Shown here: positions 2,753-13,844 of the stretch, in pieces | Position numbering within the stretch: position 1 is the first letter of the stretch | Layout of the letters: each line of letters opens with the position of its first letter | Assembly (NCBI GenBank): GCA_027490955.1 | Contig: JAIXXB010000032.1 | Location: 60,102 to 124,101, forward strand | From: Rhodobacter sp. | GTDB taxonomy: Bacteria > Pseudomonadota > Alphaproteobacteria > Rhodobacterales > Rhodobacteraceae | Length of the DNA stretch: 64,000 nt | Reading direction: 5' to 3' | Position numbers and translations under genes: made by a program | The notes under the pieces: generated by a model | Told to the model about the DNA's origin: nothing | The model's input: only the letters and a program-made list of their open reading frames with translations | Databases searched by the model: none

Positions 2753-3139
2753 TCAGCGCGAAATCGCGTAACGCTGCAATATCTCCAGCGGGACAACCGC
2801 TAAAGTGGCGATATGCGTGGCGGCCAAATTGACCTGCGGGGCCGCGCCTTCCTCATGCGCTTGTAGGAACCGCGCCGCGCAAAGACACCAGCGATCCCCT
2901 GCCTTTAGCCCTGCAAAGCCATATTCGGGGCGCGGGGTGGACAGATCGTTGCCAAGGTATTTTGACAGGGCCAAAAACTCATCTGTCATGATCGCGCAGA
3001 CCGAATGCAAACCGCCATCCATATGGCCAGTGTTGCAGCAGCCATCGCGGAAATAGCCTGTCATAGGTGCGGTCGAGCAGGTTTCCAGCGCCCCGCCCAG
3101 CACGTTGGTCGAGGGAAACATCGCGTCAGAAATAGCCAT
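2753..3139 (-). CDS. DUF2237 family protein
   Basis: NVLGGALETCSTAPMTGYFRDGCC and GDRWCLCAARF motifs are typical of DUF2237. ATG overlaps the upstream TAA (TAATG). Confidence 0.85.
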   Translation of the reverse strand: MAISDAMFPSTNVLGGALETCSTAPMTGYFRDGCCNTGHMDGGLHSVCAIMTDEFLALSKYLGNDLSTPRPEYGFAGLKAGDRWCLCAARFLQAHEEGAAPQVNLAATHIATLAVVPLEILQRYAISR

Positions 3140-4047
3140 TAAAACACCTGTGAAAAGCGGGGGGGAAGGCGGTAAAGTTCTTTTGTGCGTCCGCCGCCCC
3201 AAAAGGCGACTTTGCCATCGTGTAAAAGTTGCTGGCCATCGATCATCTTGGCGCGAAATTCGGGCAGCGCGATGTCTTCGCGCACAGGAACGCCGCTGGC
3301 CAGCGCCTTGAAATTTTCCAAATCTTTTCCCCAAGCATGGCCCACATCTTTCGGGTCTTTCTCGCCTGTCATGATATCGCGCATTTCCCGCCGCCCCGCC
3401 AGCCTTGCGCAGGTGATATCATAGTCAAAAAAGCGCAGATGGATCAGGTAAAGATGTGGGTCAAGAACGCGGGGCAGATGGTTGTTGGCATGTCCACCGA
3501 TGGTAAAGGCGACATCGCGGCGCATCACGCAGGGCTTGGCGTAATTGGCATTGGCGCGAAAGACACGGCGGCGCGATAGGATGGTGGCATCGTCTGTGAT
3601 CGGGTCTGTTTCCACCTCGGGATTGTGAATCAGTTCTATCGCAAAGGGGCAGAGCGATTTGGGCACATCGCGCCCCTCATAGCGCCGCATGTAAGTGATC
3701 AGATCAGGGGCAATGTCGGGGTCGACCACCACCACCTCATCGACATCGCCTACAAAAAGCCAATTGTAATAGCGCAGCATGCCGCTGGCGAATTGGGAAA
3801 TAAAGGCCCAGCGGCGGCGGTCTAACCGAAACATCGTCGGGTCGCGTGGCAGGGTGATGATGTTGCACCCCGCGCCGATGCGGGCATGTTCGGCGTCACC
3901 CCCATGTGAAAGGATATACAGATGCTGGCGGCCAAATTGCGCGCCGTAATGGCGCACCCAGCGTTCGAGAAAAAAGTAATCCTGATAGGCCATCGTGATG
4001 GCCCCGCAGGGTACTTTGGTAGGGTCCATGATGCCGCGCTCTGCCAT
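3139..4047 (-). CDS. Glycosyltransferase family 2-like protein (Glyco_tranf_2_4 type)
   Basis: FLERWVRHYG, YILSHGGD, VGDVDE (DxD) and NYAKPC motifs. Paralog of 6581-7471. Confidence 0.75.
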   Translation of the reverse strand: MAERGIMDPTKVPCGAITMAYQDYFFLERWVRHYGAQFGRQHLYILSHGGDAEHARIGAGCNIITLPRDPTMFRLDRRRWAFISQFASGMLRYYNWLFVGDVDEVVVVDPDIAPDLITYMRRYEGRDVPKSLCPFAIELIHNPEVETDPITDDATILSRRRVFRANANYAKPCVMRRDVAFTIGGHANNHLPRVLDPHLYLIHLRFFDYDITCARLAGRREMRDIMTGEKDPKDVGHAWGKDLENFKALASGVPVREDIALPEFRAKMIDGQQLLHDGKVAFWGGGRTKELYRLPPRFSQVF

Positions 4048-4056
4048 GCCGCCCTT

Positions 4057-4704
4057 TTAGCGTGAAGAGAAGAACCCTTGCAACATCGCCGAAAACTGGG
4101 CGTTGTCATAGCTGCGCGGTGTCACGTCAAAGCGCACCATGCGCCCGCGCGTCTCGGCAATGGGAAACCAAGCCTCGGCCATAGAATACAGCGAATTTTC
4201 ACGGCCGACATAATCGTCCCACAGCACAGTTACGGGGCGGCGTGTGTTGAGGGCCGTGGCCAAAAAGCAGCCCAGCCGAAAGCGCCCGTCAATCAGCACA
4301 AGATCAGGGTCGATCCGGCCCGCCTCTTGCCAAAAGGCCATGGGATAGGCCCAATAGCGCCGCCAATCATTATGGTTGGCAGGCATGCCCCATTCGCGGG
4401 TTTTGCCGATATTGGCGTGGCGAATATCGATGCTCGGGCGCATGACACCCGCGCGCGTCAGCGTATCGATCAGATTTGCCGCCCATTTTGCGTCGCTTTC
4501 AATCGACACGATCGGCGCGCGAGAATGGCAGGCAGCATAGGCCGTAGATCCGCCCGATCCATATTCCAAAATCGCTTTGGCGCGGCGGTAATGGTCTTGC
4601 ACCCAATCCCTTTCCACCTGCGGCATCGACATTTCTGGCAAGGCTACGGCAGGGTCAGGTAGGGGCAAATCTGGCAAGGTCTTGGCTTTTGGGCGGCTGG
4701 CCAT
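4057..4704 (-). CDS. Putative class I SAM-dependent methyltransferase-fold protein
   Basis: ILEYGSGGST (motif I), IVSIESD, DLVLIDGRFR and LWDDY motifs. Start uncertain (4737 or 4704). Confidence 0.6.
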   Translation of the reverse strand: MASRPKAKTLPDLPLPDPAVALPEMSMPQVERDWVQDHYRRAKAILEYGSGGSTAYAACHSRAPIVSIESDAKWAANLIDTLTRAGVMRPSIDIRHANIGKTREWGMPANHNDWRRYWAYPMAFWQEAGRIDPDLVLIDGRFRLGCFLATALNTRRPVTVLWDDYVGRENSLYSMAEAWFPIAETRGRMVRFDVTPRSYDNAQFSAMLQGFFSSR

Positions 4705-4864
4705 GTCATTATCCTTGGGCGCAGGTCTTTTGGGCAAACTTTGCGCAAAAATCGCCCCCGCGCAACCATCTGTTTCTTAAAATGAAACAATTCCCTTTCT
4801 TGCAGCCAAAGACTATCTTGGGCAGAATAGAGACAGACCAGTGTATCGGGGTAAGGGGCAATTC

Positions 4865-5611
4865 GTGCTGACAATCGCGCAATCTGTGCCGAAAGCCTGC
4901 CTTTTGGGCGGCGAAGGGCAAAGTCTTGCGGCCGCAGTTTTGGCCAGTGGCGGGTTGTGGTTTTGCGCCCATACCGATGAGGTGCTGATCGATGGCGATG
5001 CAATCACAGGCTGGCGCGCCCGCGTGGGCACTCATGCATTGCGGCCAACTGTTCCCAATACGGGTGGAACAGTGTTTGATACCGCATGTCCAAGTTTTGT
5101 TTTGCAAACGGGTGTGCATTGCGGTTTCACCTTACCAAATGCGGTGAAAAAGCTGGGCCAATTTACCGCCGCTGTGATTTTTGCAGCCCCCGATGATGAT
5201 ATTCGCAGCCTGTTTGCCCTAAACACAGGCCCTGCAAATGAGATGATTTTTCTGTCCGAGGCAGAGGGCCAGATTTTTGCCAAGGATCGCGCAGGCGGCG
5301 TGGCCGTTTATTTGCCTAGCCCCCAGCACCGCAGTCGCCGCTGGCGTATGGCGATTTTGTCCTACACGGGGCGGCAATTGCACCTGTGGGCCGATGGTGC
5401 AAGCGCGGTTGGCACTGGCGTGGCCTTGGGGATGGATGGGCCTGCCGATATGTTTGTCGGATGCAGGTCGAACCGCGCAGGCCTGTCCAAAACGCTAGGT
5501 GCGGGCCGCATTCGTGATGTGCTTTTTTGGGATAAGCGCGCGCTGTTGGCCGAAGACAACAGCACTGAATTGGCTGCGCTGCACCGCTACTTCCGCTGGA
5601 CAACCGCATGA
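4865..5611 (+). CDS. Hypothetical protein, possible concanavalin A/LamG-like beta-sandwich
   Basis: Long ORF whose stop overlaps the next start (ATGA at 5608-5611). FTAAVIF, WRMAILSYTGRQLHLWADG and FVGCRS resemble a LamG-like strand pattern (inference). Start uncertain (4841 or 4865). Confidence 0.55.
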   Translation: MLTIAQSVPKACLLGGEGQSLAAAVLASGGLWFCAHTDEVLIDGDAITGWRARVGTHALRPTVPNTGGTVFDTACPSFVLQTGVHCGFTLPNAVKKLGQFTAAVIFAAPDDDIRSLFALNTGPANEMIFLSEAEGQIFAKDRAGGVAVYLPSPQHRSRRWRMAILSYTGRQLHLWADGASAVGTGVALGMDGPADMFVGCRSNRAGLSKTLGAGRIRDVLFWDKRALLAEDNSTELAALHRYFRWTTA

Positions 5612-6576
5612 GCGATGAAGTCCCCCTCAGCCTGCCGCCGCAGGTGCAACTGTCCAGCGCCGCGCCAGAGGGTCGGTTTTTGGTGTTGGGGCAAGGGGCG
5701 CTGGCAGGGGCGAACCTGTGGTATGAACCCAGCGCGGGTATCGGCCCCCATGGGCGCGATTTGATCATCAGCTTTGACAACCTTGCCACCATTGACGAAG
5801 GCTGGCCGCGCGGGCCTTGGGCCTATCGCCGCCTTGCGCCGATTGGGGCGGCGGTCTTGGGTGTGCAAAGCCATGGCAAAGATTGGTTTCGCTGCACGGG
5901 CGCGCCCGATATGTTGCGCACCCTTGCGGCGCAACATTTTTTCGACGGGTTCGCCAATATCGTGATGATCGGCGCATCCATGGGCGGGTTTGCTGCGCTG
6001 AACTTTGCCCCGCTTGTGCCGCGCGCGCGCGTGATTGCGCTGTCGGCGCAAACCTCTATGTCCAAACATATTGCGCCCTTTGAGGCGCGCTTTCCCTTTG
6101 CCGTGCGTAAATCGAACTGGGAGGCGCAGCCATTTTTGGATGCGGCCGCAGCTATTGCCTATATCCCTGCCGTGGCCCTGCTATATGATCCGTTCACGCC
6201 CGAGGATCGCGCCCATGCCGCCCGCATGGCCGCGCCCCATGTGCAGGCCATTCGCCTGAACCATGCCACGCACGAGGCCATCCGCGTGGTGATGAAGGCA
6301 GGTGCATTTCAGGGATTGGTGCAGGATATGCTGGCGCAAGGGCGCGTAACACCCGCCTTTTGGGCGCAGTATCGGGCGCGCAAATCTGTGCCAAAATGGC
6401 AAAAATCGCTGCTGTTTACTGCCCTAGAGCGGGGGCATTATCGCGGCGTTTTGCGCGGTGCAAATCAGGTTTTGGCCATGGGTTTGGAATCGGGCCTTGC
6501 CGAAGAGGAATTGGTCTTTGCCCGCCGCGCGCGGCGCGAGGCGCTGCGCCATTTGGATGCAAAGGCGGCGGAATAG
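5608..6576 (+). CDS. Alpha/beta-hydrolase-fold protein of a polysaccharide locus
   Basis: Nucleophile elbow IGASMGG, with DLIISFDNL, LLYDP and HATH motifs. Translationally coupled to the upstream gene. Confidence 0.7.
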   Translation: MSDEVPLSLPPQVQLSSAAPEGRFLVLGQGALAGANLWYEPSAGIGPHGRDLIISFDNLATIDEGWPRGPWAYRRLAPIGAAVLGVQSHGKDWFRCTGAPDMLRTLAAQHFFDGFANIVMIGASMGGFAALNFAPLVPRARVIALSAQTSMSKHIAPFEARFPFAVRKSNWEAQPFLDAAAAIAYIPAVALLYDPFTPEDRAHAARMAAPHVQAIRLNHATHEAIRVVMKAGAFQGLVQDMLAQGRVTPAFWAQYRARKSVPKWQKSLLFTALERGHYRGVLRGANQVLAMGLESGLAEEELVFARRARREALRHLDAKAAE

Positions 6577-6580
6577 GCAA

Positions 6581-7471
6581 ATGGACACAACCCGCGCAGC
6601 GATGATGGCAATGACAATGGTGGGCGGCGACCATTTCTTTTTGCGCCGCTGGGTCGAATATTATGGCCGCCAATTGGGGCGCGAGAATTGCTATGTCCTT
6701 TCACATGGCGGCGATCCCGAACACAAGAAAATCGCCGAAGGCTGCAATGTGATCTACCTGCCCTATGATCCCACGCGCGATTGCTTTAATCAGCGCCGCT
6801 GGCAAATGCTCTCGCGCCTCACGTCGGCATTTACCAGCTTTTACAATTGGGTTTTGGTGGGCGATGTGGATGAATTGGTGGTGGTCGATCCTGCCGTCTC
6901 GCCAAGCTTGCGCGATTATGTCGCCGCGATAAACCCTAAAGGTGGGCCAAAGGTGCTGACCCCCTTTGCCATTGAAATGGTTCATACGCCCGAGTCAGAG
7001 CCCGAAAAAATCAGCGATGATCGCAAAATCCTTTCGGTGCGGCGCAATTTTCGCCTGAATGCCAACTATGCAAAGCCCTGTATCACCGCAACGAATATAG
7101 ACATCGTTCCGGGCGGGCATTTTGCCAGCCATCCCCACCTGCATCTGGATCCGCATCTTTACCTGTTTCACCTGCGCTTTATCGATTACGATCTTTGCGC
7201 AGCCCGCCTTGCCACCCGCCGCGCCCAACGCGAAATTCAAAGCGGCGCTCTCGAGGAAGTTACCCGCGAAAAGACGGGCTGGGATACAGCTTGGGATACC
7301 TATATCAGCATCTGCAAACAAAAACCCATTCGCGAAGATGTCGAGTTTGCCGATTTTCGTGCCGAGATGAAGGCAGGCTGGCGCGTGAAGAAAGATGTGT
7401 ATTGGGCGCCAGGTGGCGCGCGGCCAAAGGGGCTGTATTCGCTGCCCCCGCGATTTGCAGAGGTGTTTTAG
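6581..7471 (+). CDS. Glycosyltransferase family 2-like protein (Glyco_tranf_2_4 type)
   Basis: FLRRWVEYYG, YVLSHGGD, VGDVDE, NYAKPC and DPHLYLFHLRF motifs. ATG 4 nt after the previous stop. Confidence 0.75.
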   Translation: MDTTRAAMMAMTMVGGDHFFLRRWVEYYGRQLGRENCYVLSHGGDPEHKKIAEGCNVIYLPYDPTRDCFNQRRWQMLSRLTSAFTSFYNWVLVGDVDELVVVDPAVSPSLRDYVAAINPKGGPKVLTPFAIEMVHTPESEPEKISDDRKILSVRRNFRLNANYAKPCITATNIDIVPGGHFASHPHLHLDPHLYLFHLRFIDYDLCAARLATRRAQREIQSGALEEVTREKTGWDTAWDTYISICKQKPIREDVEFADFRAEMKAGWRVKKDVYWAPGGARPKGLYSLPPRFAEVF

Positions 7472-8905
7472 ATGGCCGATCCCGCAAAAACAGGCGTGAT
7501 CATCCGCGCGGAAAATGGCGATGTGATTGGCTGGGATGACACGGGGCTGACGCTGCATCTGTCTGACCGCGTGATTGCCGATATCGCAGCGCGCCTTGAT
7601 TTGCCACAGGTTGCTGCGCCGCACGCCGCCCCTGATCTTGTGCCATTGGGCGATGATATCGACGCGTGGGATGTTCAGATGCGCGGCGACTGGCTGCATT
7701 TCACCGCCAATTTAGCGGGGGCTGACGGCACGCGCGGCTATATGCGCCACAAAGATGATGCGACAATATTGGCGGCAAGTCATCTGCCCGTCATGGGTAT
7801 CTTTGCGCTGGGCGGCGCGCGTGCGCAGCTTGGCCAACCACTGCACACGCGCTTTCCCTATCATCTGTTCGCCCCTGCCGATGATATTGGCGCAGCGGGC
7901 ATGGGCGGGCTGGGCGAGGCAATCTTTACCCCCAAACTTTTGCCCATCCGCGAGATGACGCATGAGGCGCTTTTGGCCGAAACTTTGCTGTCTTTGCGCA
8001 AATCGGCGGGGGCGGGGCTGCCCTTGTTTGTGCTGCGTGCGGAAACCGATCTGGCAGCCAGCGCCGCCGATTTGGGCAAAGGCGCGGCCATGGGAAATTT
8101 TGAAAAAGCCCTGCAAAACCATGCCGCCGCCGCCGCCCGCCTTGGCCGACCTGCCAAAGTTGCGGCTGTGTGTTTGGATTACTGCCTAGAGGATATCTTG
8201 GGCGATGCGGCTGCTTACCGCGATGGGATCATGGCCGTGATGGCGCAAATCACCCAATATCTGGGCCGCCTAGGTGCGCCGCGCCCCATTTTCCTTGCGG
8301 GGTTTGATTGCGGCACGCAAACCATCACAACAGGCGCGGCGCTAGAGGGGCAGTGGGAATTGTCATGGAACCATGGCGATCATCCGCTGGTCTGCACGGG
8401 GCCAAGCTATGCCTATGCGATCGACGACACGGGCCGCCTGACTGATATTGGCCAGCGGACAAAGGCCGAGATGTCGGCGCATGCCCTTTTGGCAAGCGAA
8501 AGCGGTGCGGGCTGGCTTTGCCCAACCATCCAATTGGCTGAACGGCAGGGCCAAGACATTCGCCTGATCTGCAGCGCGGCAGAGGGGTTGGTGATTGATA
8601 CATCCGACCCCTTTGATGCGGGCAAGCAGGCGGGCTTTCGGCTTGATGGTGCAACCAACGGCGCCCAAATCACCGCAGTCGAGATCGACGCAAAAGACAA
8701 GCGTGCGGTGATCTTGCGCTGTTCGGCCCGCCCCGAAGGTGAGGTGTTTGTCGCCTATGCCCATGGCGCAGTGCCGCGCGCGCGCGCGCATGACTATCCC
8801 GCCAATGCAGGGGCGCTGCGCGATGAATGGGCCGCGCAGGGCACGCATGGCACGCTGCACCGCTGGGCGCTGCCCGCCCGATTGCGCCTGACGGATGGCG
8901 GCTGA
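7472..8905 (+). CDS. Hypothetical protein, possible degenerate SGNH/SASA-like domain
   Basis: 477-aa ORF abutting both neighbours (starts directly after the upstream stop; TGATG overlap downstream). Block spacing resembles SGNH acetylesterases, but the catalytic residues are not present. Confidence 0.6.
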   Translation: MADPAKTGVIIRAENGDVIGWDDTGLTLHLSDRVIADIAARLDLPQVAAPHAAPDLVPLGDDIDAWDVQMRGDWLHFTANLAGADGTRGYMRHKDDATILAASHLPVMGIFALGGARAQLGQPLHTRFPYHLFAPADDIGAAGMGGLGEAIFTPKLLPIREMTHEALLAETLLSLRKSAGAGLPLFVLRAETDLAASAADLGKGAAMGNFEKALQNHAAAAARLGRPAKVAAVCLDYCLEDILGDAAAYRDGIMAVMAQITQYLGRLGAPRPIFLAGFDCGTQTITTGAALEGQWELSWNHGDHPLVCTGPSYAYAIDDTGRLTDIGQRTKAEMSAHALLASESGAGWLCPTIQLAERQGQDIRLICSAAEGLVIDTSDPFDAGKQAGFRLDGATNGAQITAVEIDAKDKRAVILRCSARPEGEVFVAYAHGAVPRARAHDYPANAGALRDEWAAQGTHGTLHRWALPARLRLTDGG

Positions 8906-11214
8906 TGGGCTTTGATGCGGCCAGCATTGCGCGCGACAATATCGCCGTAATTTGGGTGGATGACATGATTGATGTCTTCACATGGCGCCATGCCTTTGGC
9001 ATCCCAATTCTGACACCTAACCTTGATCGGCTGATGTCGGCGGGTGTACGCTTTGGCAATGCCTATGCCACAGTGCCGCTTTGCGCACCTTGCCGCGCCG
9101 AACTCGCCACAGGTCTGTCGCCCTTTCGCACTGGGCTGGTGGATTTAAACCGCTTTTGGCGGCAGGTGCTGCCACCGCAAAAGGCATGGGCCTATGACCT
9201 GCGCCGCGCGGGCTTTTATACCTTTACCACGGGCAAGGTCGATGCCACCTATCGCCCTATGCCCGAAAAATACCGCCGAGTGCTGTTTCACGAAGATGTG
9301 CCCTGCGCGGATAAAAATGGGCGCAGTCGCATCAAAGAATATCTTGACCGCGGCCCGGGGATTAAGGGCGTCAACCACCCCAATGATGATGGGGCGCAAG
9401 ACCATCTGTTCTATGATTACGATGTGGCACAAAACGCCATAGACCTGTTGCAGCGCGCTGACCCCAGCCGCAGGCATCTGATTCAACTGGGGTTCAAACA
9501 TCCGCATTACAATCTGGAATGCCCCGACCGCTTTTATCAAATGTATGACGCGGCAGCTATCCGTTGGCCCGAAATCGCAGCAGCCGAAGATTACTATGGC
9601 CCCCAGCAGGGCTTTGCCGTCTATGAGGCCGCCTATATCGCCAATGGCAATTGGACGCCTGAAAAAGCAGGCGATGAAGGCTGGCGGCAAGTGGTGCGTG
9701 CCTATTTTGCCGCCGTCAGCCATGTTGACCATGAAATCGGGCGGTTTTTGGATGCGCTTGCCGCATCGCCCTTGGGCGATAACACCACTGTGATTTTTCT
9801 GTCTGACAATGGCTTTAACCTTGGCAACCACGACAGCTTTCATAAAATGAGCCAATGGGACAGCGCAGCCCATGTGCCACTGGGTATTTATTCGCCGCGG
9901 ATGGGCGGGCAGGGGCGGGTGATTGATACCCCCGTATCCCTGCACAATTTCGCCAAAACTGTGATGCAACTGGCAGGCCTGCCGCCGCGCCCCGATTGGG
10001 TGTCAGGACAAAGCCTGCTGCCGCTGATCGATGCCAGCTTTGGGTCATATGATTACAGCAAATCGCCCGTCACGTCGGTTTTTGGCACGTTGTCAGTGCG
10101 CCCTTCGGTGGCGGGCTATCAGCAATATCGCTATTTCCGCTATCCCAATGGCGAGGAGCATATCTATGACATCGTCGCCGATCCGGGCGAGACGACGAAT
10201 CTTGTGGCCTCTGCCCCGCTCGAGTTTTTGCGCAGCGAATTGGTGCGCGGCGCGCTGGACTTGGGGCTGGATTTGCGCGGGTTTGAAAACCCCGCAGATG
10301 GGGTCAATGCGATGATGGCTGTTGACGGGTCGGTGGTGCTGGAAGGCACGCGCGGCGGTGACAGCTATTGGGCCTATGGCGCCGATGCCGAGAAAATCCG
10401 CGAGTCCAAAGACGGCGGCAATGACACGCTGTGGTATATGGGCGGGCCTGACAATTATGTGCTGCATTGCCCGATGAATGTGGAAAACATCCGCATTGCG
10501 ACAGTGGTCGCGCGGCACGAAACCAACCCAAAGGACGAAGGCCGCACCCTGCGCATCGTCGCCCATCCCGACAGCCCCATCCATTTTGAAACATCCGAGA
10601 GGGTTCTTGTGGATGTGCGCGGATCGCGCGGGGATGACGTGCTGATTGGCCCCAAATATGGCGGGGCTACATTTTACGGCGGGGATGGGGATGATCGCCT
10701 GATTGCCATCGCCAAACTTCCCACCGCGCGCCATGCGTTTTATGGCGGTGCGGGCAATGACCATCTGCAAGGCGGCGGCGGGCGTGATGTTCTGGATGGT
10801 GGCACAGGCGACGATACGATTTATGCAGGGGATGCGCGCAATGTGATCTTTGCAGGCCATGGCAATGATTGGATCGAAGGGGGGGATGGCTCTTCGGTCA
10901 TTCACACAGGGCCGGGCCGAAACCGCGTCAAGCTGGGCCGCGGTAATGACACGCTGCACATTGGCACAGGTGTTTCCCATGTTGCGGCAGCGGGCGGCAA
11001 CACCGTCTTTGTGCCTGCCTATGGCGGCGTGACGCTGGTGGATAAATGGGCGGCGGGGCAGGTCTATGATTTCAGCACTTGGCCTGCGCGCCCGCAGATG
11101 ACGCGACACGGCGATGTGGCCGAATTCACCTTGGGCCTGTCGATCTTGCGGGTGATGGGGGTGGCTGAAGGGGCAGATGTGATGGGGCAGGCCAAATGGG
11201 GCGAGGGCGGCTGA
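8905..11214 (+). CDS. Formylglycine-dependent sulfatase fused to C-terminal RTX (hemolysin-type Ca-binding) repeats
   Basis: VDDM metal motif, LCAPCRAELATG (CxPxR), TPNLDRL, SDNGFNLG and HVPL motifs. C-terminal GGxGxD nonapeptides (GGDGDD, GGAGND, GGGGRD, GGTGDD, AGHGND). No signal peptide. Confidence 0.85.
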   Translation: MGFDAASIARDNIAVIWVDDMIDVFTWRHAFGIPILTPNLDRLMSAGVRFGNAYATVPLCAPCRAELATGLSPFRTGLVDLNRFWRQVLPPQKAWAYDLRRAGFYTFTTGKVDATYRPMPEKYRRVLFHEDVPCADKNGRSRIKEYLDRGPGIKGVNHPNDDGAQDHLFYDYDVAQNAIDLLQRADPSRRHLIQLGFKHPHYNLECPDRFYQMYDAAAIRWPEIAAAEDYYGPQQGFAVYEAAYIANGNWTPEKAGDEGWRQVVRAYFAAVSHVDHEIGRFLDALAASPLGDNTTVIFLSDNGFNLGNHDSFHKMSQWDSAAHVPLGIYSPRMGGQGRVIDTPVSLHNFAKTVMQLAGLPPRPDWVSGQSLLPLIDASFGSYDYSKSPVTSVFGTLSVRPSVAGYQQYRYFRYPNGEEHIYDIVADPGETTNLVASAPLEFLRSELVRGALDLGLDLRGFENPADGVNAMMAVDGSVVLEGTRGGDSYWAYGADAEKIRESKDGGNDTLWYMGGPDNYVLHCPMNVENIRIATVVARHETNPKDEGRTLRIVAHPDSPIHFETSERVLVDVRGSRGDDVLIGPKYGGATFYGGDGDDRLIAIAKLPTARHAFYGGAGNDHLQGGGGRDVLDGGTGDDTIYAGDARNVIFAGHGNDWIEGGDGSSVIHTGPGRNRVKLGRGNDTLHIGTGVSHVAAAGGNTVFVPAYGGVTLVDKWAAGQVYDFSTWPARPQMTRHGDVAEFTLGLSILRVMGVAEGADVMGQAKWGEGG

Positions 11215-11576
11215 CCGCCTATTGTGTCACGCGCGGGCATAGTCGCGGCGCAACAGCCGCCAAATGTTTTGGCTCAGTTTTGCGGGCGCATATCCGCAAA
11301 GACAGTTTGGTTAACCCAGCGCGGTTCTGATCGGGCGACACCGCACCAGTCGGCTGGGTTTTGGAACATGGCGCGAAGTGGTAGCCCGATATCTTCGCAG
11401 CGAAAAGGCCCTTACCTGATTGAAGATCGCGAAGGTTTAAGGCGCGAAGAATGGGCGCAGATGATACCTTCGTCAGACAAGCCCAAACACTGGCATAAAG
11501 GCGTTAAGGGGTCAGGCGGGTGTCGCCCCCGCCCTTGGTGCTGCGATACGCGTATACAGCTGCGGCGTTGGGCGCG

Positions 11577-13844
11577 CTACCCACACTTACTATTGCCACA
11601 ACTGCCACAGGTCATGCACCCTTCGACCATGCGCAGATCAAGCGATCCGCAGGCATCGCAACTGGCGCGGGGGCCATCGCCCACGGCCATCGCCTGCGCC
11701 TTTGGATCAGATTTCAGGCCCAGCCCCTCGCCCGCGATAAAGCCAATGGCCACCAGATGCTGCTCGATCACCCCGCCGATCGCCGCCAGAATAGACGGGA
11801 TATAGGCCCCGTTCACCCAAGCCCCGCCGCGCGGATCGAACACAGCCTTCAGCTCTTCGACCACAAAAGACACATCGCCGCCACGACGAAACACGGCAGA
11901 GATCATCCGCGTCAGCGCGACTGTCCACGCAAAATGCTCCATGTTTTTGGAATTGATAAACACCTCAAACGGGCGGCGGCGGCCTGCGATGATGGTATCA
12001 TTGATGGTAATATACAGCGCATGTTCGTTCATCGGCCATTTCACCTTGTAGGTTGCGCCTTCCAATGCGGCGGGCCGTTCTAAAGGTTCAGACAGATAGA
12101 CTACTTCGCCCATCGGCGGGGCCTGCGGCGCTGGCGCAGCCTTGATGGTTTCGCTGACCGACAGCACAGAGCCCGTCACAGCATTGGGGCGGTAGGTGGT
12201 ACAGCCTTTGCAGCCCTGATCCCAAGCGGCCATATACACCTCGGCAAAATCATCAAAGCTGATGTCTTCGGGGCAATTGATGGTCTTGGAAATAGAACTG
12301 TCGATCCAGCGCTGGGCGGCTGCCTGCATCTTGACATGATCCAAGGGCGGCAGGGTTTGCGCGTTGACAAAATGATCTGGCAGCGGGGCATCGCCATGCA
12401 ATTCGCGCCACTTTGCCACGGCGTAATCAACGACCTCTTCTTCACTGCGCGAGCCGTCTTTTTGCAACACTTTGCGCGTGTAGGCATAGGCAAACACAGG
12501 TTCGATCCCAGAAGAGACATTGCCCGCATATAGGCTGATCGTGCCAGTGGGCGCGATGGATGTCAGCAGCGCGTTGCGAATACCATGGGTGCGGATCGCA
12601 TCGCGCACATCCGCATCCATGGCCCGCATTGTGCCCGAATCCAAATACTTATCCGCATCAAACAGCGGAAAAGCCCCTTTTTCGCGCGCCAAATCGACCG
12701 AGGCCAGATAGGCGCTGCGGGCGATGGCATGCATCCAGTCTTCGCATTGCTGTGCGGCCGCATCGCTGCCATAGCGCAGGCCCAGCATCAGCAGCGCATC
12801 TGCCAGCCCCGTCACCCCCAGCCCAATGCGCCGCTTGGCCTGCGCCTCGGCGGCCTGCTGGGGCAGAGGAAAGCGCGAGGCATCAACCACATTATCCATC
12901 ATCCGCACTGCTGTGCGCACAAGATCATCCAAGGCGGCTGTGTCCATTTTGGCGTCAGTCGTAAAGGCATCCTTTACCAGCACGGCCAAATTGATACTGC
13001 CCAAAAGGCAGGCACCATAGGGGGGCAGGGGCTGCTCGCCGCAAGGATTGGTTGCTGCGATGGTTTCAACGTAATTGAGATTATTCGCCGCATTGATGCG
13101 GTCGATGAAAATCACGCCTGGTTCGGCGAATTCATAGGTGTTGCGCATGATCTTATTCCACAGATCGCGCGCTTGCACTGTTTGATAGACGCGCCCGCCA
13201 TGGGTTAAATCCCATGGGCCATCGGCCTTGACAGCGTCCATAAACGGGTCGGTGACCAGCACCGAAAGGTTGAACATACGCAGGCGGGCAGGGTCGCGTT
13301 TCGCCTCGATGAAGGCTTCGATATCAGGGTGATCGCAGCGCAGCGTGGCCATCATCGCCCCGCGGCGGCTGCCCGCCGACATGATCGTGCGGCACATCGC
13401 ATCCCAAACATCCATGAATGACAAAGGGCCAGAGGCATCTGCGGCAACGCCCATCACGGCAGCACCGCGCGGGCGGATGGTGGAAAAATCATATCCAATC
13501 CCACCGCCTTGCTGCATGGTCAGCGCCGCCTCGCGCAGGGCATCGAAAATGCCGCCCATGCTGTCGGGGATCGTGCCCATCACAAAGCAGTTAAACAGCG
13601 TGACCGACCGCCCCGTGCCCGCCCCTGCCAAAATACGGCCTGCGGGCAAGTATTTGAACCCTTCTAGGGCCGCGTAAAACTTTTCCTCCCACGCAGCGGG
13701 GTCTTTTTCCACCGATGCCAAATCGCGCGCCACGCGCCGCCACGTGTCTTGCACTGTGGCATCAATCGGCGTGCCGCTTGCATCCTTTAGGCGGTATTTC
13801 ATATCCCAAATCTGGGCGGCAATCGGCGCGGAAAAGCTGGACAT
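11577..13844 (-). CDS. nrdJ: Adenosylcobalamin-dependent (class II) ribonucleotide reductase
   Basis: TLFNCFV, ATNPCGEQPL, SIAPTGTISL and KGCTTYR motifs, plus C-terminal Cys cluster CDAC..CMTCGSCGNSKC. Confidence 0.95.
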   Translation of the reverse strand: MSSFSAPIAAQIWDMKYRLKDASGTPIDATVQDTWRRVARDLASVEKDPAAWEEKFYAALEGFKYLPAGRILAGAGTGRSVTLFNCFVMGTIPDSMGGIFDALREAALTMQQGGGIGYDFSTIRPRGAAVMGVAADASGPLSFMDVWDAMCRTIMSAGSRRGAMMATLRCDHPDIEAFIEAKRDPARLRMFNLSVLVTDPFMDAVKADGPWDLTHGGRVYQTVQARDLWNKIMRNTYEFAEPGVIFIDRINAANNLNYVETIAATNPCGEQPLPPYGACLLGSINLAVLVKDAFTTDAKMDTAALDDLVRTAVRMMDNVVDASRFPLPQQAAEAQAKRRIGLGVTGLADALLMLGLRYGSDAAAQQCEDWMHAIARSAYLASVDLAREKGAFPLFDADKYLDSGTMRAMDADVRDAIRTHGIRNALLTSIAPTGTISLYAGNVSSGIEPVFAYAYTRKVLQKDGSRSEEEVVDYAVAKWRELHGDAPLPDHFVNAQTLPPLDHVKMQAAAQRWIDSSISKTINCPEDISFDDFAEVYMAAWDQGCKGCTTYRPNAVTGSVLSVSETIKAAPAPQAPPMGEVVYLSEPLERPAALEGATYKVKWPMNEHALYITINDTIIAGRRRPFEVFINSKNMEHFAWTVALTRMISAVFRRGGDVSFVVEELKAVFDPRGGAWVNGAYIPSILAAIGGVIEQHLVAIGFIAGEGLGLKSDPKAQAMAVGDGPRASCDACGSLDLRMVEGCMTCGSCGNSKCG

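What the first reader, a model, noticed from the sequence alone, without database searches (positions are those of the whole stretch)
8905..11214. Sulfatase fused to RTX repeats: candidate type I-secreted extracellular sulfatase
Seen in the sequence: an intact CxPxR (CAPCR) formylglycine motif, no N-terminal signal peptide, and C-terminal GGxGxD repeats followed by a short tail. Established: RTX repeats mark T1SS substrates, and Cys-to-FGly conversion requires a cytoplasmic maturase acting before folding. Inference: the enzyme is matured in the cytoplasm and exported in one step to act on sulfated glycans outside the cell, which is unusual because most bacterial sulfatases use Sec, Tat or lipoprotein routes.
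Basis: partly seen in the sequence, partly recalled or inferred. Interest (0 to 1): 0.65.

Follow-up and report, generated by a model that had tools for sequence, protein, structure and literature searches.

The report
Leaderless sulfatase fused to RTX repeats
The gene is a real, well-conserved sulfatase with a calcium-binding RTX tail and is probably exported by type I secretion; this design is already catalogued, but this genome and most relatives with the gene lack any known enzyme to activate the sulfatase's catalytic cysteine.

Summary
Observation confirmed. ORF 8905-11214 (+, 769 aa) has no leader. It carries an S1 sulfatase domain (Pfam E 6e-38), an intact CAPCR motif (nt 9082-9096), about 8-10 RTX nonapeptides (residues 573-690) and a 79-aa tail.

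It belongs to a tight orthogroup (over 120 clusters at 70% identity or more, all about 770 aa) in Paracoccaceae/Rhodobacteraceae. A wider set of leaderless sulfatase-RTX proteins occurs in Alphaproteobacteria and one cyanobacterium. The design is not new: SulfAtlas curators describe a 775-aa Rhodobacterales S1_7 sulfatase with hemolysin-type regions, and Linhartova 2010 lists a predicted RTX sulfatase.

Type I export is plausible. The genome has a PrtD-type ABC protein, an HlyD partner, TolC and at least 20 RTX ORFs. A 37%-identical paralogue elsewhere sits beside a T1SS pair.

The step "matured by a cytoplasmic maturase" is not supported. Neither FGE nor anSME is found here, and only 2 of 9 ortholog-carrying genomes have either one. 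This orthogroup alone has an invariant second Cys (CAPCR) and Asp in place of the His that contacts formylglycine.

The gene always travels with an SGNH-esterase-like and a laminin-G-like protein, next to glycosyltransferases. That suggests work on a glycan, possibly the cell's own. Moderate interest.

The parts
8905..11214 (+). Sulfatase-RTX gene, 769 aa (P0001)
   Evidence: Open frame; Pfam Sulfatase, SGSH_C and HemolysinCabind; over 120 orthologue clusters at 70% identity or more, all about 770 aa
8932..10242 (+). S1 sulfatase catalytic domain (residues 10-446)
   Evidence: Aligns to choline sulfatase 6fny over residues 7-436, E 1.8e-33. D19, D20, C60, R64, K111, H201, D301, N302 and K314 are invariant in 121 sequences; N82 in 120 of 121
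9082..9096 (+). CAPCR formylglycine signature (C60-R64), with an orthogroup-specific second Cys (C63)
   Evidence: The wider clade has CxPSR
9232..9243 (+). GKVD: K111 is kept; D113 replaces the His that contacts formylglycine (His104 of S. meliloti BetC)
   Evidence: Residue roles are from PMC5870055
10243..10620 (+). Linker region of about 125 aa with no family match and degenerate Gly/Asp-rich turns
   Evidence: No Pfam hit; conserved in orthologues
10621..10974 (+). RTX block of about 8-10 GGxGxD nonapeptides (residues 573-690)
   Evidence: Matches the CyaA RTX domain in the PDB
10975..11214 (+). C-terminal 79 aa: a cap-like V-D-K-W..G..Y-D-F-S motif plus a variable tail, the presumed type I secretion signal
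   Evidence: It lacks the D-F-I-L type ending of most other RTX ORFs in this genome
7472..8905 (+). Translationally coupled 477-aa partner (P0123) with an SGNH/sialate-O-acetylesterase-like fold. No invariant Ser and no leader
   Evidence: AF2 pLDDT 81. Foldseek: 9vyh phage tailspike 1e-17, 7kmm XAC1771 acetylesterase 6e-10, 8f9p SIAE 1e-7. Co-located with the sulfatase in all 10 loci examined
4841..5611 (+). Partner of about 250 aa (P0124) with a laminin-G/concanavalin-A-like beta-sandwich fold
   Evidence: AF2 pLDDT 88.5. Foldseek: agrin and laminin LG domains 1e-7, and lectin domains of GH54 and trans-sialidase. Present in all 10 loci
5608..6576 (+). 322-aa alpha/beta-hydrolase-like protein, found only in the window and L011
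   Evidence: Weak Abhydrolase_6 hit, E 8e-4; 55% identical in L011
6458..7471 (+). GT2_4-type glycosyltransferase. The true start is probably near 6580, since the orthologue is 296 aa
   Evidence: PF13704, E 2.4e-9; 76% identical to the L011 gene
3139..4047 (-). Divergently oriented paralogue of the GT2_4 glycosyltransferase
   Evidence: PF13704, E 2.4e-7; 47% identical to 6458-7471

Best explanation
The gene encodes a leaderless, Cys-type S1 sulfatase; SulfAtlas places a near-identical architecture in subfamily S1_7. Its C-terminal RTX beta-roll and tail most likely direct one-step export through a PrtD/HlyD/TolC type I system. Under this model the RTX block would fold on binding extracellular Ca2+, leaving the enzyme outside the cell or on its surface (inferred). 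There it would remove sulfate from a glycan or glycoconjugate (inferred). It would work together with two genes that always accompany it, an SGNH-esterase-like protein and a laminin-G-like lectin-fold protein, and with neighbouring glycosyltransferases (association shown, roles inferred). The catalytic Cys60 cannot be converted by FGE or anSME here, because neither is encoded. Conversion must use an unidentified route, as in E. coli, or the enzyme works with reduced efficiency or altered chemistry. The orthogroup-specific changes (second Cys in CAPCR; Asp for the formylglycine-contacting His) may be tied to this.
For: Domain architecture and motif. Ten of 11 BetC catalytic positions are kept and invariant in 121 orthologues (roles from PMC5870055). 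No leader in any orthologue. T1SS parts in the genome: a PrtD-type ABC protein at 635 bits against a 510 cut-off, with an adjacent HlyD_3 protein, TolC at 249 bits against 225, and at least 20 other RTX ORFs. A 37%-identical 1090-aa sulfatase-RTX paralogue (L030) lies directly beside a PrtD/HlyD pair. The trio of SGNH-like, LamG-like and sulfatase genes is conserved in 10 of 10 loci from different genera, next to GT2_4, GT92, GT61 and DXD glycosyltransferases, with folds. FGE and anSME are absent. An unidentified Cys-type maturation route in E. coli, and multiple-turnover activity of unmodified BetC, are documented in PMC6189696.
Against: No experimental evidence of secretion or activity was found for any family member (literature). 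The extreme C-terminus is poorly conserved and lacks the acidic-plus-hydrophobic ending (DFIL-like) of most other RTX ORFs in this genome. No T1SS genes lie within 10 kb in the window, in 9 orthologous loci, or in 10 other RTX-type loci. The partner proteins and glycosyltransferases have no export signals, which fits poorly with an extracellular site of action. His104 of BetC, worth about 10^3-fold in kcat/KM, is Asp here. No sulfotransferase or polysaccharide exporter was seen in the cluster.
Confidence: 0.5

Rival explanations
1. Same fold, different chemistry. The orthogroup is an alkaline-phosphatase-superfamily hydrolase whose preferred substrate is not a sulfate monoester (for example a phosphodiester or phosphonate monoester), or it uses unmodified Cys60 rather than formylglycine as the nucleophile.
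For: Invariant Asp113 replaces the formylglycine-contacting His, and an invariant second Cys lies in the motif, only in this orthogroup. Orthologue carriers mostly lack FGE: 1 of 9 against 80 of 142 other genomes, Fisher p = 0.012, not corrected for phylogeny. All NCBIfam sulfatase equivalog scores are far below cut-off, 180 against 481 and 157 against 433. Unmodified BetC and BcPMH still turn over, and phosphonate monoester hydrolases share the CxPxR motif (PMC6189696; PMC5870055).
Against: K111, N82, the H201/K314 general-acid pair and the metal ligands typical of sulfatases are all retained. The same genome keeps a canonical Cys-type BetC (CAPAR, GKMH) that also has no FGE, so lack of FGE is not specific to this protein. 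SulfAtlas curators accept a matching architecture as S1_7.
Confidence: 0.2
2. Not exported. The enzyme acts inside the cell, or stays cell-associated, together with its leaderless partners and cytoplasmic glycosyltransferases on an intracellular glycoconjugate precursor. The RTX block would then serve as a Ca2+-dependent structural or regulatory module.
For: All conserved neighbours lack signal peptides and transmembrane segments. The start codon is translationally coupled to the upstream gene. The C-terminus is unlike those of the genome's other RTX proteins. T1SS genes are not linked in most loci.
Against: By general knowledge, RTX beta-rolls need millimolar Ca2+ to fold and are found almost only in T1SS substrates (review PMC3034196). 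One paralogue is linked to a T1SS pair. RTX genes are commonly unlinked from their transporters.
Confidence: 0.15
3. Foraging enzyme. It is secreted to strip sulfate from environmental algal or host polysaccharides for carbon or sulfur, independently of its neighbours.
For: The sulfatase domain is 35-40% identical to sulfatases of Planctomycetota, Verrucomicrobiota and Bacteroidota, groups generally regarded as polysaccharide degraders. The closest solved structures include ulvan-, carrageenan- and glycosaminoglycan-active sulfatases.
Against: No glycoside hydrolases, lyases, TonB receptors or sugar transporters lie in the cluster; the neighbours are glycosyltransferases. The genome has only two sulfatase genes, unlike sulfated-glycan specialists. 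The gene is in only 9 of 151 genera of the family.
Confidence: 0.1

Closest known systems
SulfAtlas S1_7 sulfatase with hemolysin-type calcium-binding regions (UniProt A0A086XT05_9RHOB, 775 aa; PMC9825549)
   Same: A Rhodobacterales protein of about 775 aa with a complete S1 sulfatase module followed by hemolysin-type Ca-binding repeats. This is the same architecture, size and taxon as the orthogroup here.
   Different: It is a database entry only, with no function, secretion or maturation data. I could not retrieve its sequence, so orthology is likely but unverified. My PDB comparison does not separate S1_7 (6hhm 113 bits, IDS 85 bits) from S1_12 (119 bits) or S1_25 (110 bits).
Choline-O-sulfatase BetC of Sinorhizobium meliloti (S1_12; PDB 6FNY)
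   Same: It is the best solved-structure match by sequence (E 1.8e-33 over residues 7-436). It is also cytoplasmic and leaderless, Cys-type, and shares the metal ligands, Lys, and the His/Lys general-acid pair.
   Different: Identity is only about 29%. There is no Choline_sulf_C domain, and the TIGR03417 score is 157 against a cut-off of 433. His104 is Asp, and the motif is CAPCR rather than CAPAR. BetC has no RTX tail. The genome has its own true BetC elsewhere.
RTX-tailed polysaccharide-modifying enzymes exported by type I systems: AlgE mannuronan C5-epimerases of Azotobacter, and PlyA/PlyB and ExsH glycanases of rhizobia exported by PrsDE (from general knowledge)
   Same: An N-terminal carbohydrate-active catalytic module plus C-terminal RTX repeats, no leader, and export by a PrtD-class ABC transporter to act on the cell's own exopolysaccharide.
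   Different: The catalytic module here is a sulfatase that normally needs a post-translational formylglycine. No exopolysaccharide synthesis or export genes are evident beside it.
Serralysin- and lipase-type RTX enzymes (PrtDEF, AprDEF and LipBCD substrates)
   Same: An enzyme followed by a short RTX block and a C-terminal signal. Weak NCBIfam hits to serralysin, ZapA and polyurethane esterase RTX regions.
   Different: Those substrates end in an acidic residue followed by hydrophobic residues. This protein does not, while most other RTX ORFs in the genome do.

Membership tests
S1 formylglycine-dependent sulfatases (Pfam PF00884; SulfAtlas S1) | Sulfatase/alkaline-phosphatase fold domain | tested here: met
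   PF00884 E 5.8e-38, 131 bits against a cut-off of 25; 78 PDB sulfatase sequences at E below 1e-5
S1 formylglycine-dependent sulfatases (Pfam PF00884; SulfAtlas S1) | C/S-x-P/A-x-R signature at the nucleophile position | tested here: met
   CAPCR at residues 60-64, aligned to CAPAR of BetC; invariant in 121 of 121
S1 formylglycine-dependent sulfatases (Pfam PF00884; SulfAtlas S1) | Full catalytic set: metal ligands, Lys and His near the nucleophile, and the His/Lys general-acid pair | tested here: inconclusive
   D19/D20, D301/N302, K111, N82, H201 and K314 are present and invariant, but the His equivalent to BetC His104 is Asp113 in 121 of 121
S1 formylglycine-dependent sulfatases (Pfam PF00884; SulfAtlas S1) | Cys60 is actually converted to formylglycine | not testable with these tools
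   This needs mass spectrometry. No FGE or anSME gene is present in the genome
SulfAtlas subfamily S1_7 | Score above threshold with the S1_7 HMM and agreeing BLAST neighbours | not testable with these tools
   SulfAtlas HMMs are not available. Curators assigned a 775-aa Rhodobacterales sulfatase with hemolysin-type regions to S1_7 with a score of 248.5, below their usual 300. PDB hits do not discriminate between subfamilies
Choline sulfatase BetC (TIGR03417; S1_12) | Equivalog HMM score above cut-off, plus the Choline_sulf_C domain | tested here: not met
   157 bits against a cut-off of 433. No PF12411 hit. The true BetC is at G000 C2
RTX proteins / type I secretion substrates | Tandem GGxGxDxUx nonapeptides in the C-terminal part | tested here: met
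   PF00353 E 1.1e-13, 51 bits against a cut-off of 23; repeats listed
RTX proteins / type I secretion substrates | No N-terminal signal peptide, and an uncleaved C-terminal tail after the repeats | tested here: met
   (N-terminus); 79-aa tail
RTX proteins / type I secretion substrates | A cognate ABC transporter, membrane-fusion protein and TolC are encoded | tested here: met
   C29 PrtD-type ABC plus HlyD; TolC at C1. They are not linked to the gene
RTX proteins / type I secretion substrates | Demonstrated T1SS-dependent export | not testable with these tools
   No proteomic or genetic data were found.

The most novel reading that the evidence does not exclude
The orthogroup is a sulfatase lineage that has become independent of both known maturases. 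Either formylglycine is made by an unknown route, or the enzyme uses the thiol directly. The unknown route could be the elusive 'third system' or self- or extracellular oxidation helped by the invariant Cys60/Cys63 pair in CAPCR. In either case Asp113 would replace the His that normally handles the formylglycine hydrate. A 3-Mb genome with two Cys-type sulfatases and no FGE or anSME would then be a compact place to look for that system.
Probability: 0.12. Interest if true: 0.8.

Novelty: new member of a known kind. Interest (0 to 1): 0.4.

Why it matters
Sulfatases need a rare post-translational formylglycine, whereas type I secretion exports unfolded proteins straight from the cytoplasm. A sulfatase that uses this route shows how the two constraints can be reconciled. 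This family does so in genomes without any known maturase. That bears on the open question of the third, unidentified Cys-type maturation system, first shown in E. coli by Benjdia et al. 2007 (as cited in PMC6189696). The conserved module of sulfatase, esterase-like and lectin-like genes with glycosyltransferases may also mark an undescribed sulfated or acylated surface glycan in freshwater and marine Rhodobacterales. The architecture itself, however, is already catalogued and is common in Alphaproteobacteria.

Tried and rejected
1. I asked whether the translationally coupled upstream gene (477 aa) or the 250-aa gene is a new maturase. Sequence searches found nothing. The AF2 models resemble SGNH/sialate-O-acetylesterases with a phage tailspike, and laminin-G lectin folds. 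There is no oxidase, copper-site or radical-SAM feature, so I rejected this as unlikely.

2. I asked whether a weak or hidden FGE is present. A relaxed search (E up to 10) found only a 14-bit fragment in a frame with two stops. It also found partial 23-26-bit hits in three relatives, far from the sulfatase.

3. I tested whether T1SS or FGE linkage is a general rule. A first profile was too divergent to scan with. A second scan found no ABC/HlyD pair or FGE within 10 kb of the 10 RTX-type loci that yielded a readable ORF. T1SS linkage was seen only in L030. FGE lies close only to paralogues with weak or no RTX match (G116, G028, L095, L113).

4. ORF 11224-11805 downstream has no homologues in other loci and overlaps the end of nrdJ, so I treated it as spurious.

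5. Promoter and terminator scans gave counts at background level.

6. Literature searches for an experimentally studied RTX sulfatase or exoproteome detection found none.

Full report
**The object**

The window carries an open frame at 8827/8905-11214 on the + strand. The ATG at 8905 overlaps the TGA of the upstream ORF (7472-8905) by one base. It gives a 769-aa product, which matches the orthologues (729-819 aa, median 770).

Pfam finds these domains:
- Sulfatase, residues 29-358, E 5.8e-38.
- SGSH_C, residues 307-446.
- HemolysinCabind, E 1.1e-13.

CAPCR sits at residues 60-64, nt 9082-9096. About 8-10 nonapeptides of the GGxGxD type run from residue 573 to 690, and 79 residues follow them. 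The N-terminus (MGFDAASIARDNIAVIWVDD) runs straight into the first strand of the sulfatase fold. It has no hydrophobic core and no twin arginine. All orthologues examined begin the same way.

**The family**

More than 120 clusters at 70% identity or more were found. All are about 770 aa and all carry the RTX block. They come from Tabrizicola, Rhodobacter, Cypionkella, Yoonia, Roseovarius, Rhodophyticola, Roseibacterium, Gymnodinialimonas and Halocynthiibacter, and are annotated only as "sulfatase-like hydrolase/transferase".

In a sample of one genome per genus of the bacterial family, full-length orthologues occur in 9 of 151 genomes.

An exhaustive search of 50%-identity representatives shows a much wider set of leaderless sulfatase-plus-RTX proteins. 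They are 680-1500 aa long and 26-41% identical in the catalytic domain. Named examples include Enterovirga, Qipengyuania, Planktomarina, Oceanicella, Amaricoccus, Paracoccus and the cyanobacterium Xenococcus.

The catalytic domain alone is 35-40% identical to ordinary-length sulfatases (no RTX tail) of Planctomycetota, Verrucomicrobiota, Acidobacteriota and Bacteroidota.

**Active site**

The best solved relative is S. meliloti choline sulfatase (6fny, E 1.8e-33). Its catalytic residues are defined in PMC5870055:
- Asp14, Asp296 and His297 bind the metal.
- Cys54/fGly54 is the nucleophile, contacted by His104.
- Lys102 and Asn75 contact the sulfate.
- His201 and Lys309 form the general-acid pair.

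In the window protein the equivalents are D19/D20, D301/N302, C60, K111, N82 (offset by one position), H201 and K314. All are invariant or nearly so across 121 orthologues.

The exception is His104, which is Asp113 in 121 of 121 sequences. The wider RTX-sulfatase clade keeps a His (GK[VI]FH) and the usual C-x-P-S-R. Only this orthogroup has GKVD and C-A-P-C-R, with an invariant second Cys. H104A costs BetC about 10^3-fold in kcat/KM, so the change is unlikely to be neutral.

NCBIfam equivalog models for arylsulfatase and choline sulfatase score far below their cut-offs (180 against 481; 157 against 433). The protein is therefore not a member of either named enzyme family.

**Secretion**

The genome (2.96 Mb, 95% complete) encodes these parts of a type I system:
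- A PrtD-type ABC exporter above the NCBIfam cut-off, with an adjacent HlyD-family protein.
- A TolC above cut-off.
- At least 20 other RTX-repeat ORFs.

In another genus, a 1090-aa sulfatase-RTX paralogue (37% identical, strong RTX signal) lies directly beside a PrtD/HlyD pair. These facts make type I export the most likely fate.

Three caveats apply:
- No transporter is linked to the gene here, in nine orthologous loci, or in ten other RTX-type loci.
- The extreme C-terminus is the least conserved part of the protein.
- The C-terminus lacks the acidic-plus-hydrophobic ending (DFIL-like) of most other RTX ORFs in this genome, although a typical cap-like V-D-x-W..G..Y-D-F-S motif is present.

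No experimental report of a secreted RTX sulfatase was found.

The genome has no FGE domain (PF03781) and no anSME (TIGR03942). A relaxed search gives only a 14-bit fragment in a broken frame.

Among the nine orthologue-carrying genomes, several of them 99-100% complete:
- Only one has a convincing FGE domain (E 1e-29), and its sulfatase copy is split between two reading frames with an internal stop.
- Only one has an anSME.

In the other 142 genomes, 80 have an FGE domain at E of 1e-10 or better. Fisher's exact test gives p = 0.012. This is not corrected for shared ancestry.

By contrast, the three other RTX-bearing sulfatases examined in the same family (G144, G009, G116) sit in genomes that do have FGE. 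G116, and also G028 (a paralogue with no RTX match), have FGE within 2.5-4 kb.

The window's genome also keeps a canonical Cys-type BetC (CAPAR, GKMH, Choline_sulf_C). The lack of a maturase is therefore a property of the organism and not only of this gene.

Two documented precedents leave the matter open:
- E. coli converts Cys-type sulfatases by machinery that is still unidentified.
- Unmodified BetC is a slow but multiple-turnover enzyme (PMC6189696).

**Neighbourhood**

The gene is the last in a tightly packed + strand run:
- 4841-5611, about 250 aa.
- 5608-6576, alpha/beta-hydrolase-like.
- About 6580-7471, GT2_4 glycosyltransferase.
- 7472-8905, 477 aa.

A divergent GT2_4 paralogue lies at 3139-4047.

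Across ten loci from ten genera, the 470-aa gene, the 250-aa gene and the sulfatase are always together and co-oriented. Around them lie GT2_4/GT92, GT61 and DXD-type glycosyltransferase genes. In this genome two of those glycosyltransferase genes lie on another contig.

Sequence methods find nothing for the two partners. Structure prediction was more informative:
- The 477-aa protein (pLDDT 81) resembles a cyanophage tailspike, the Xanthomonas XAC1771 carbohydrate acetylesterase, sialic-acid esterase and NanS. Its family has no invariant serine.
- The 250-aa protein (pLDDT 88.5) is a laminin-G/concanavalin-A-like sandwich.

Neither looks like an oxidase or a radical-SAM enzyme, so I do not think either is a hidden maturase. 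Neither has an export signal. That fits poorly with a purely extracellular pathway and remains unexplained.

**Prior knowledge and verdict**

- Linhartova et al. 2010 list one predicted RTX sulfatase.
- The SulfAtlas 2022 paper describes a 775-residue Rhodobacterales sequence with a complete S1_7 module plus hemolysin-type calcium-binding regions. The curators accepted it as S1_7 although its HMM score (248.5) was below their usual 300.

This is almost certainly the same kind of protein, although I could not fetch that sequence to prove orthology.

The fusion is therefore real, conserved and probably a type I substrate, but it is already catalogued and not rare.

What is new here is the comparative result. 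This orthogroup lives almost exclusively in genomes without FGE or anSME. It carries two invariant, orthogroup-specific active-site changes. It is locked to an esterase-like and a lectin-like partner within a glycosyltransferase neighbourhood.

I give 0.5 to the exported-sulfatase model, 0.2 to altered chemistry, 0.15 to a non-exported role and 0.1 to pure foraging.

Noticed in passing
G000 contig C2:43372-44394 (L014:5343-6869): A canonical Cys-type choline sulfatase BetC (CAPAR, GKMH, Choline_sulf_C domain) is encoded in the same genome, which lacks FGE and anSME. The organism keeps two Cys-type sulfatases without a known maturase.
   Followed up: partly
window 7472-8905: The 477-aa protein has a whole-chain fold match to a cyanopodophage tailspike (9vyh, E 1e-17, TM 0.61) and to SGNH-type carbohydrate acetylesterases. 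Its family has no invariant serine, so the usual nucleophile seems absent.
   Followed up: partly
L012:13979-14788 and homologues (G000 C39:135491-136291): A 269-aa protein with a weak DXD glycosyltransferase signature is unusually conserved (73-88% identity across genera). It accompanies the sulfatase cluster in most genera but sits on another contig in this genome, next to a 611-aa GT2_4/GT92-like gene.
   Followed up: partly
G027 contig C75:911-2976: The only orthologue carrier with a convincing FGE domain has its sulfatase-RTX gene split between two reading frames with an internal TGA. This is either a pseudogene or an assembly error in an 85%-complete, 390-contig assembly.
   Followed up: no
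G000, many contigs (e.g. C25:16224-23357, C39:101686-107187, C2:4466-11362): At least 20 RTX-repeat ORFs of up to about 2400 aa are present. Most end in an acidic residue followed by hydrophobic residues (DFIL, DFFVF, NFIFG), unlike the sulfatase.
   Followed up: partly
window 4057-4737 (-): A 226-aa ORF with no family match lies between the divergent GT2_4 gene and the operon start. It has a 37%-identical paralogue on contig C17, so it is probably a real gene.
   Followed up: no
L095 and L113 (Aliiroseovarius conchicola; a Rhodobacterales MAG): Paralogous sulfatases with CGPSR and 0-1 regex RTX-like repeats have an FGE gene within about 2-3 kb. This is the canonical sulfatase-FGE pairing that the window's orthogroup lacks.
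   Followed up: partly
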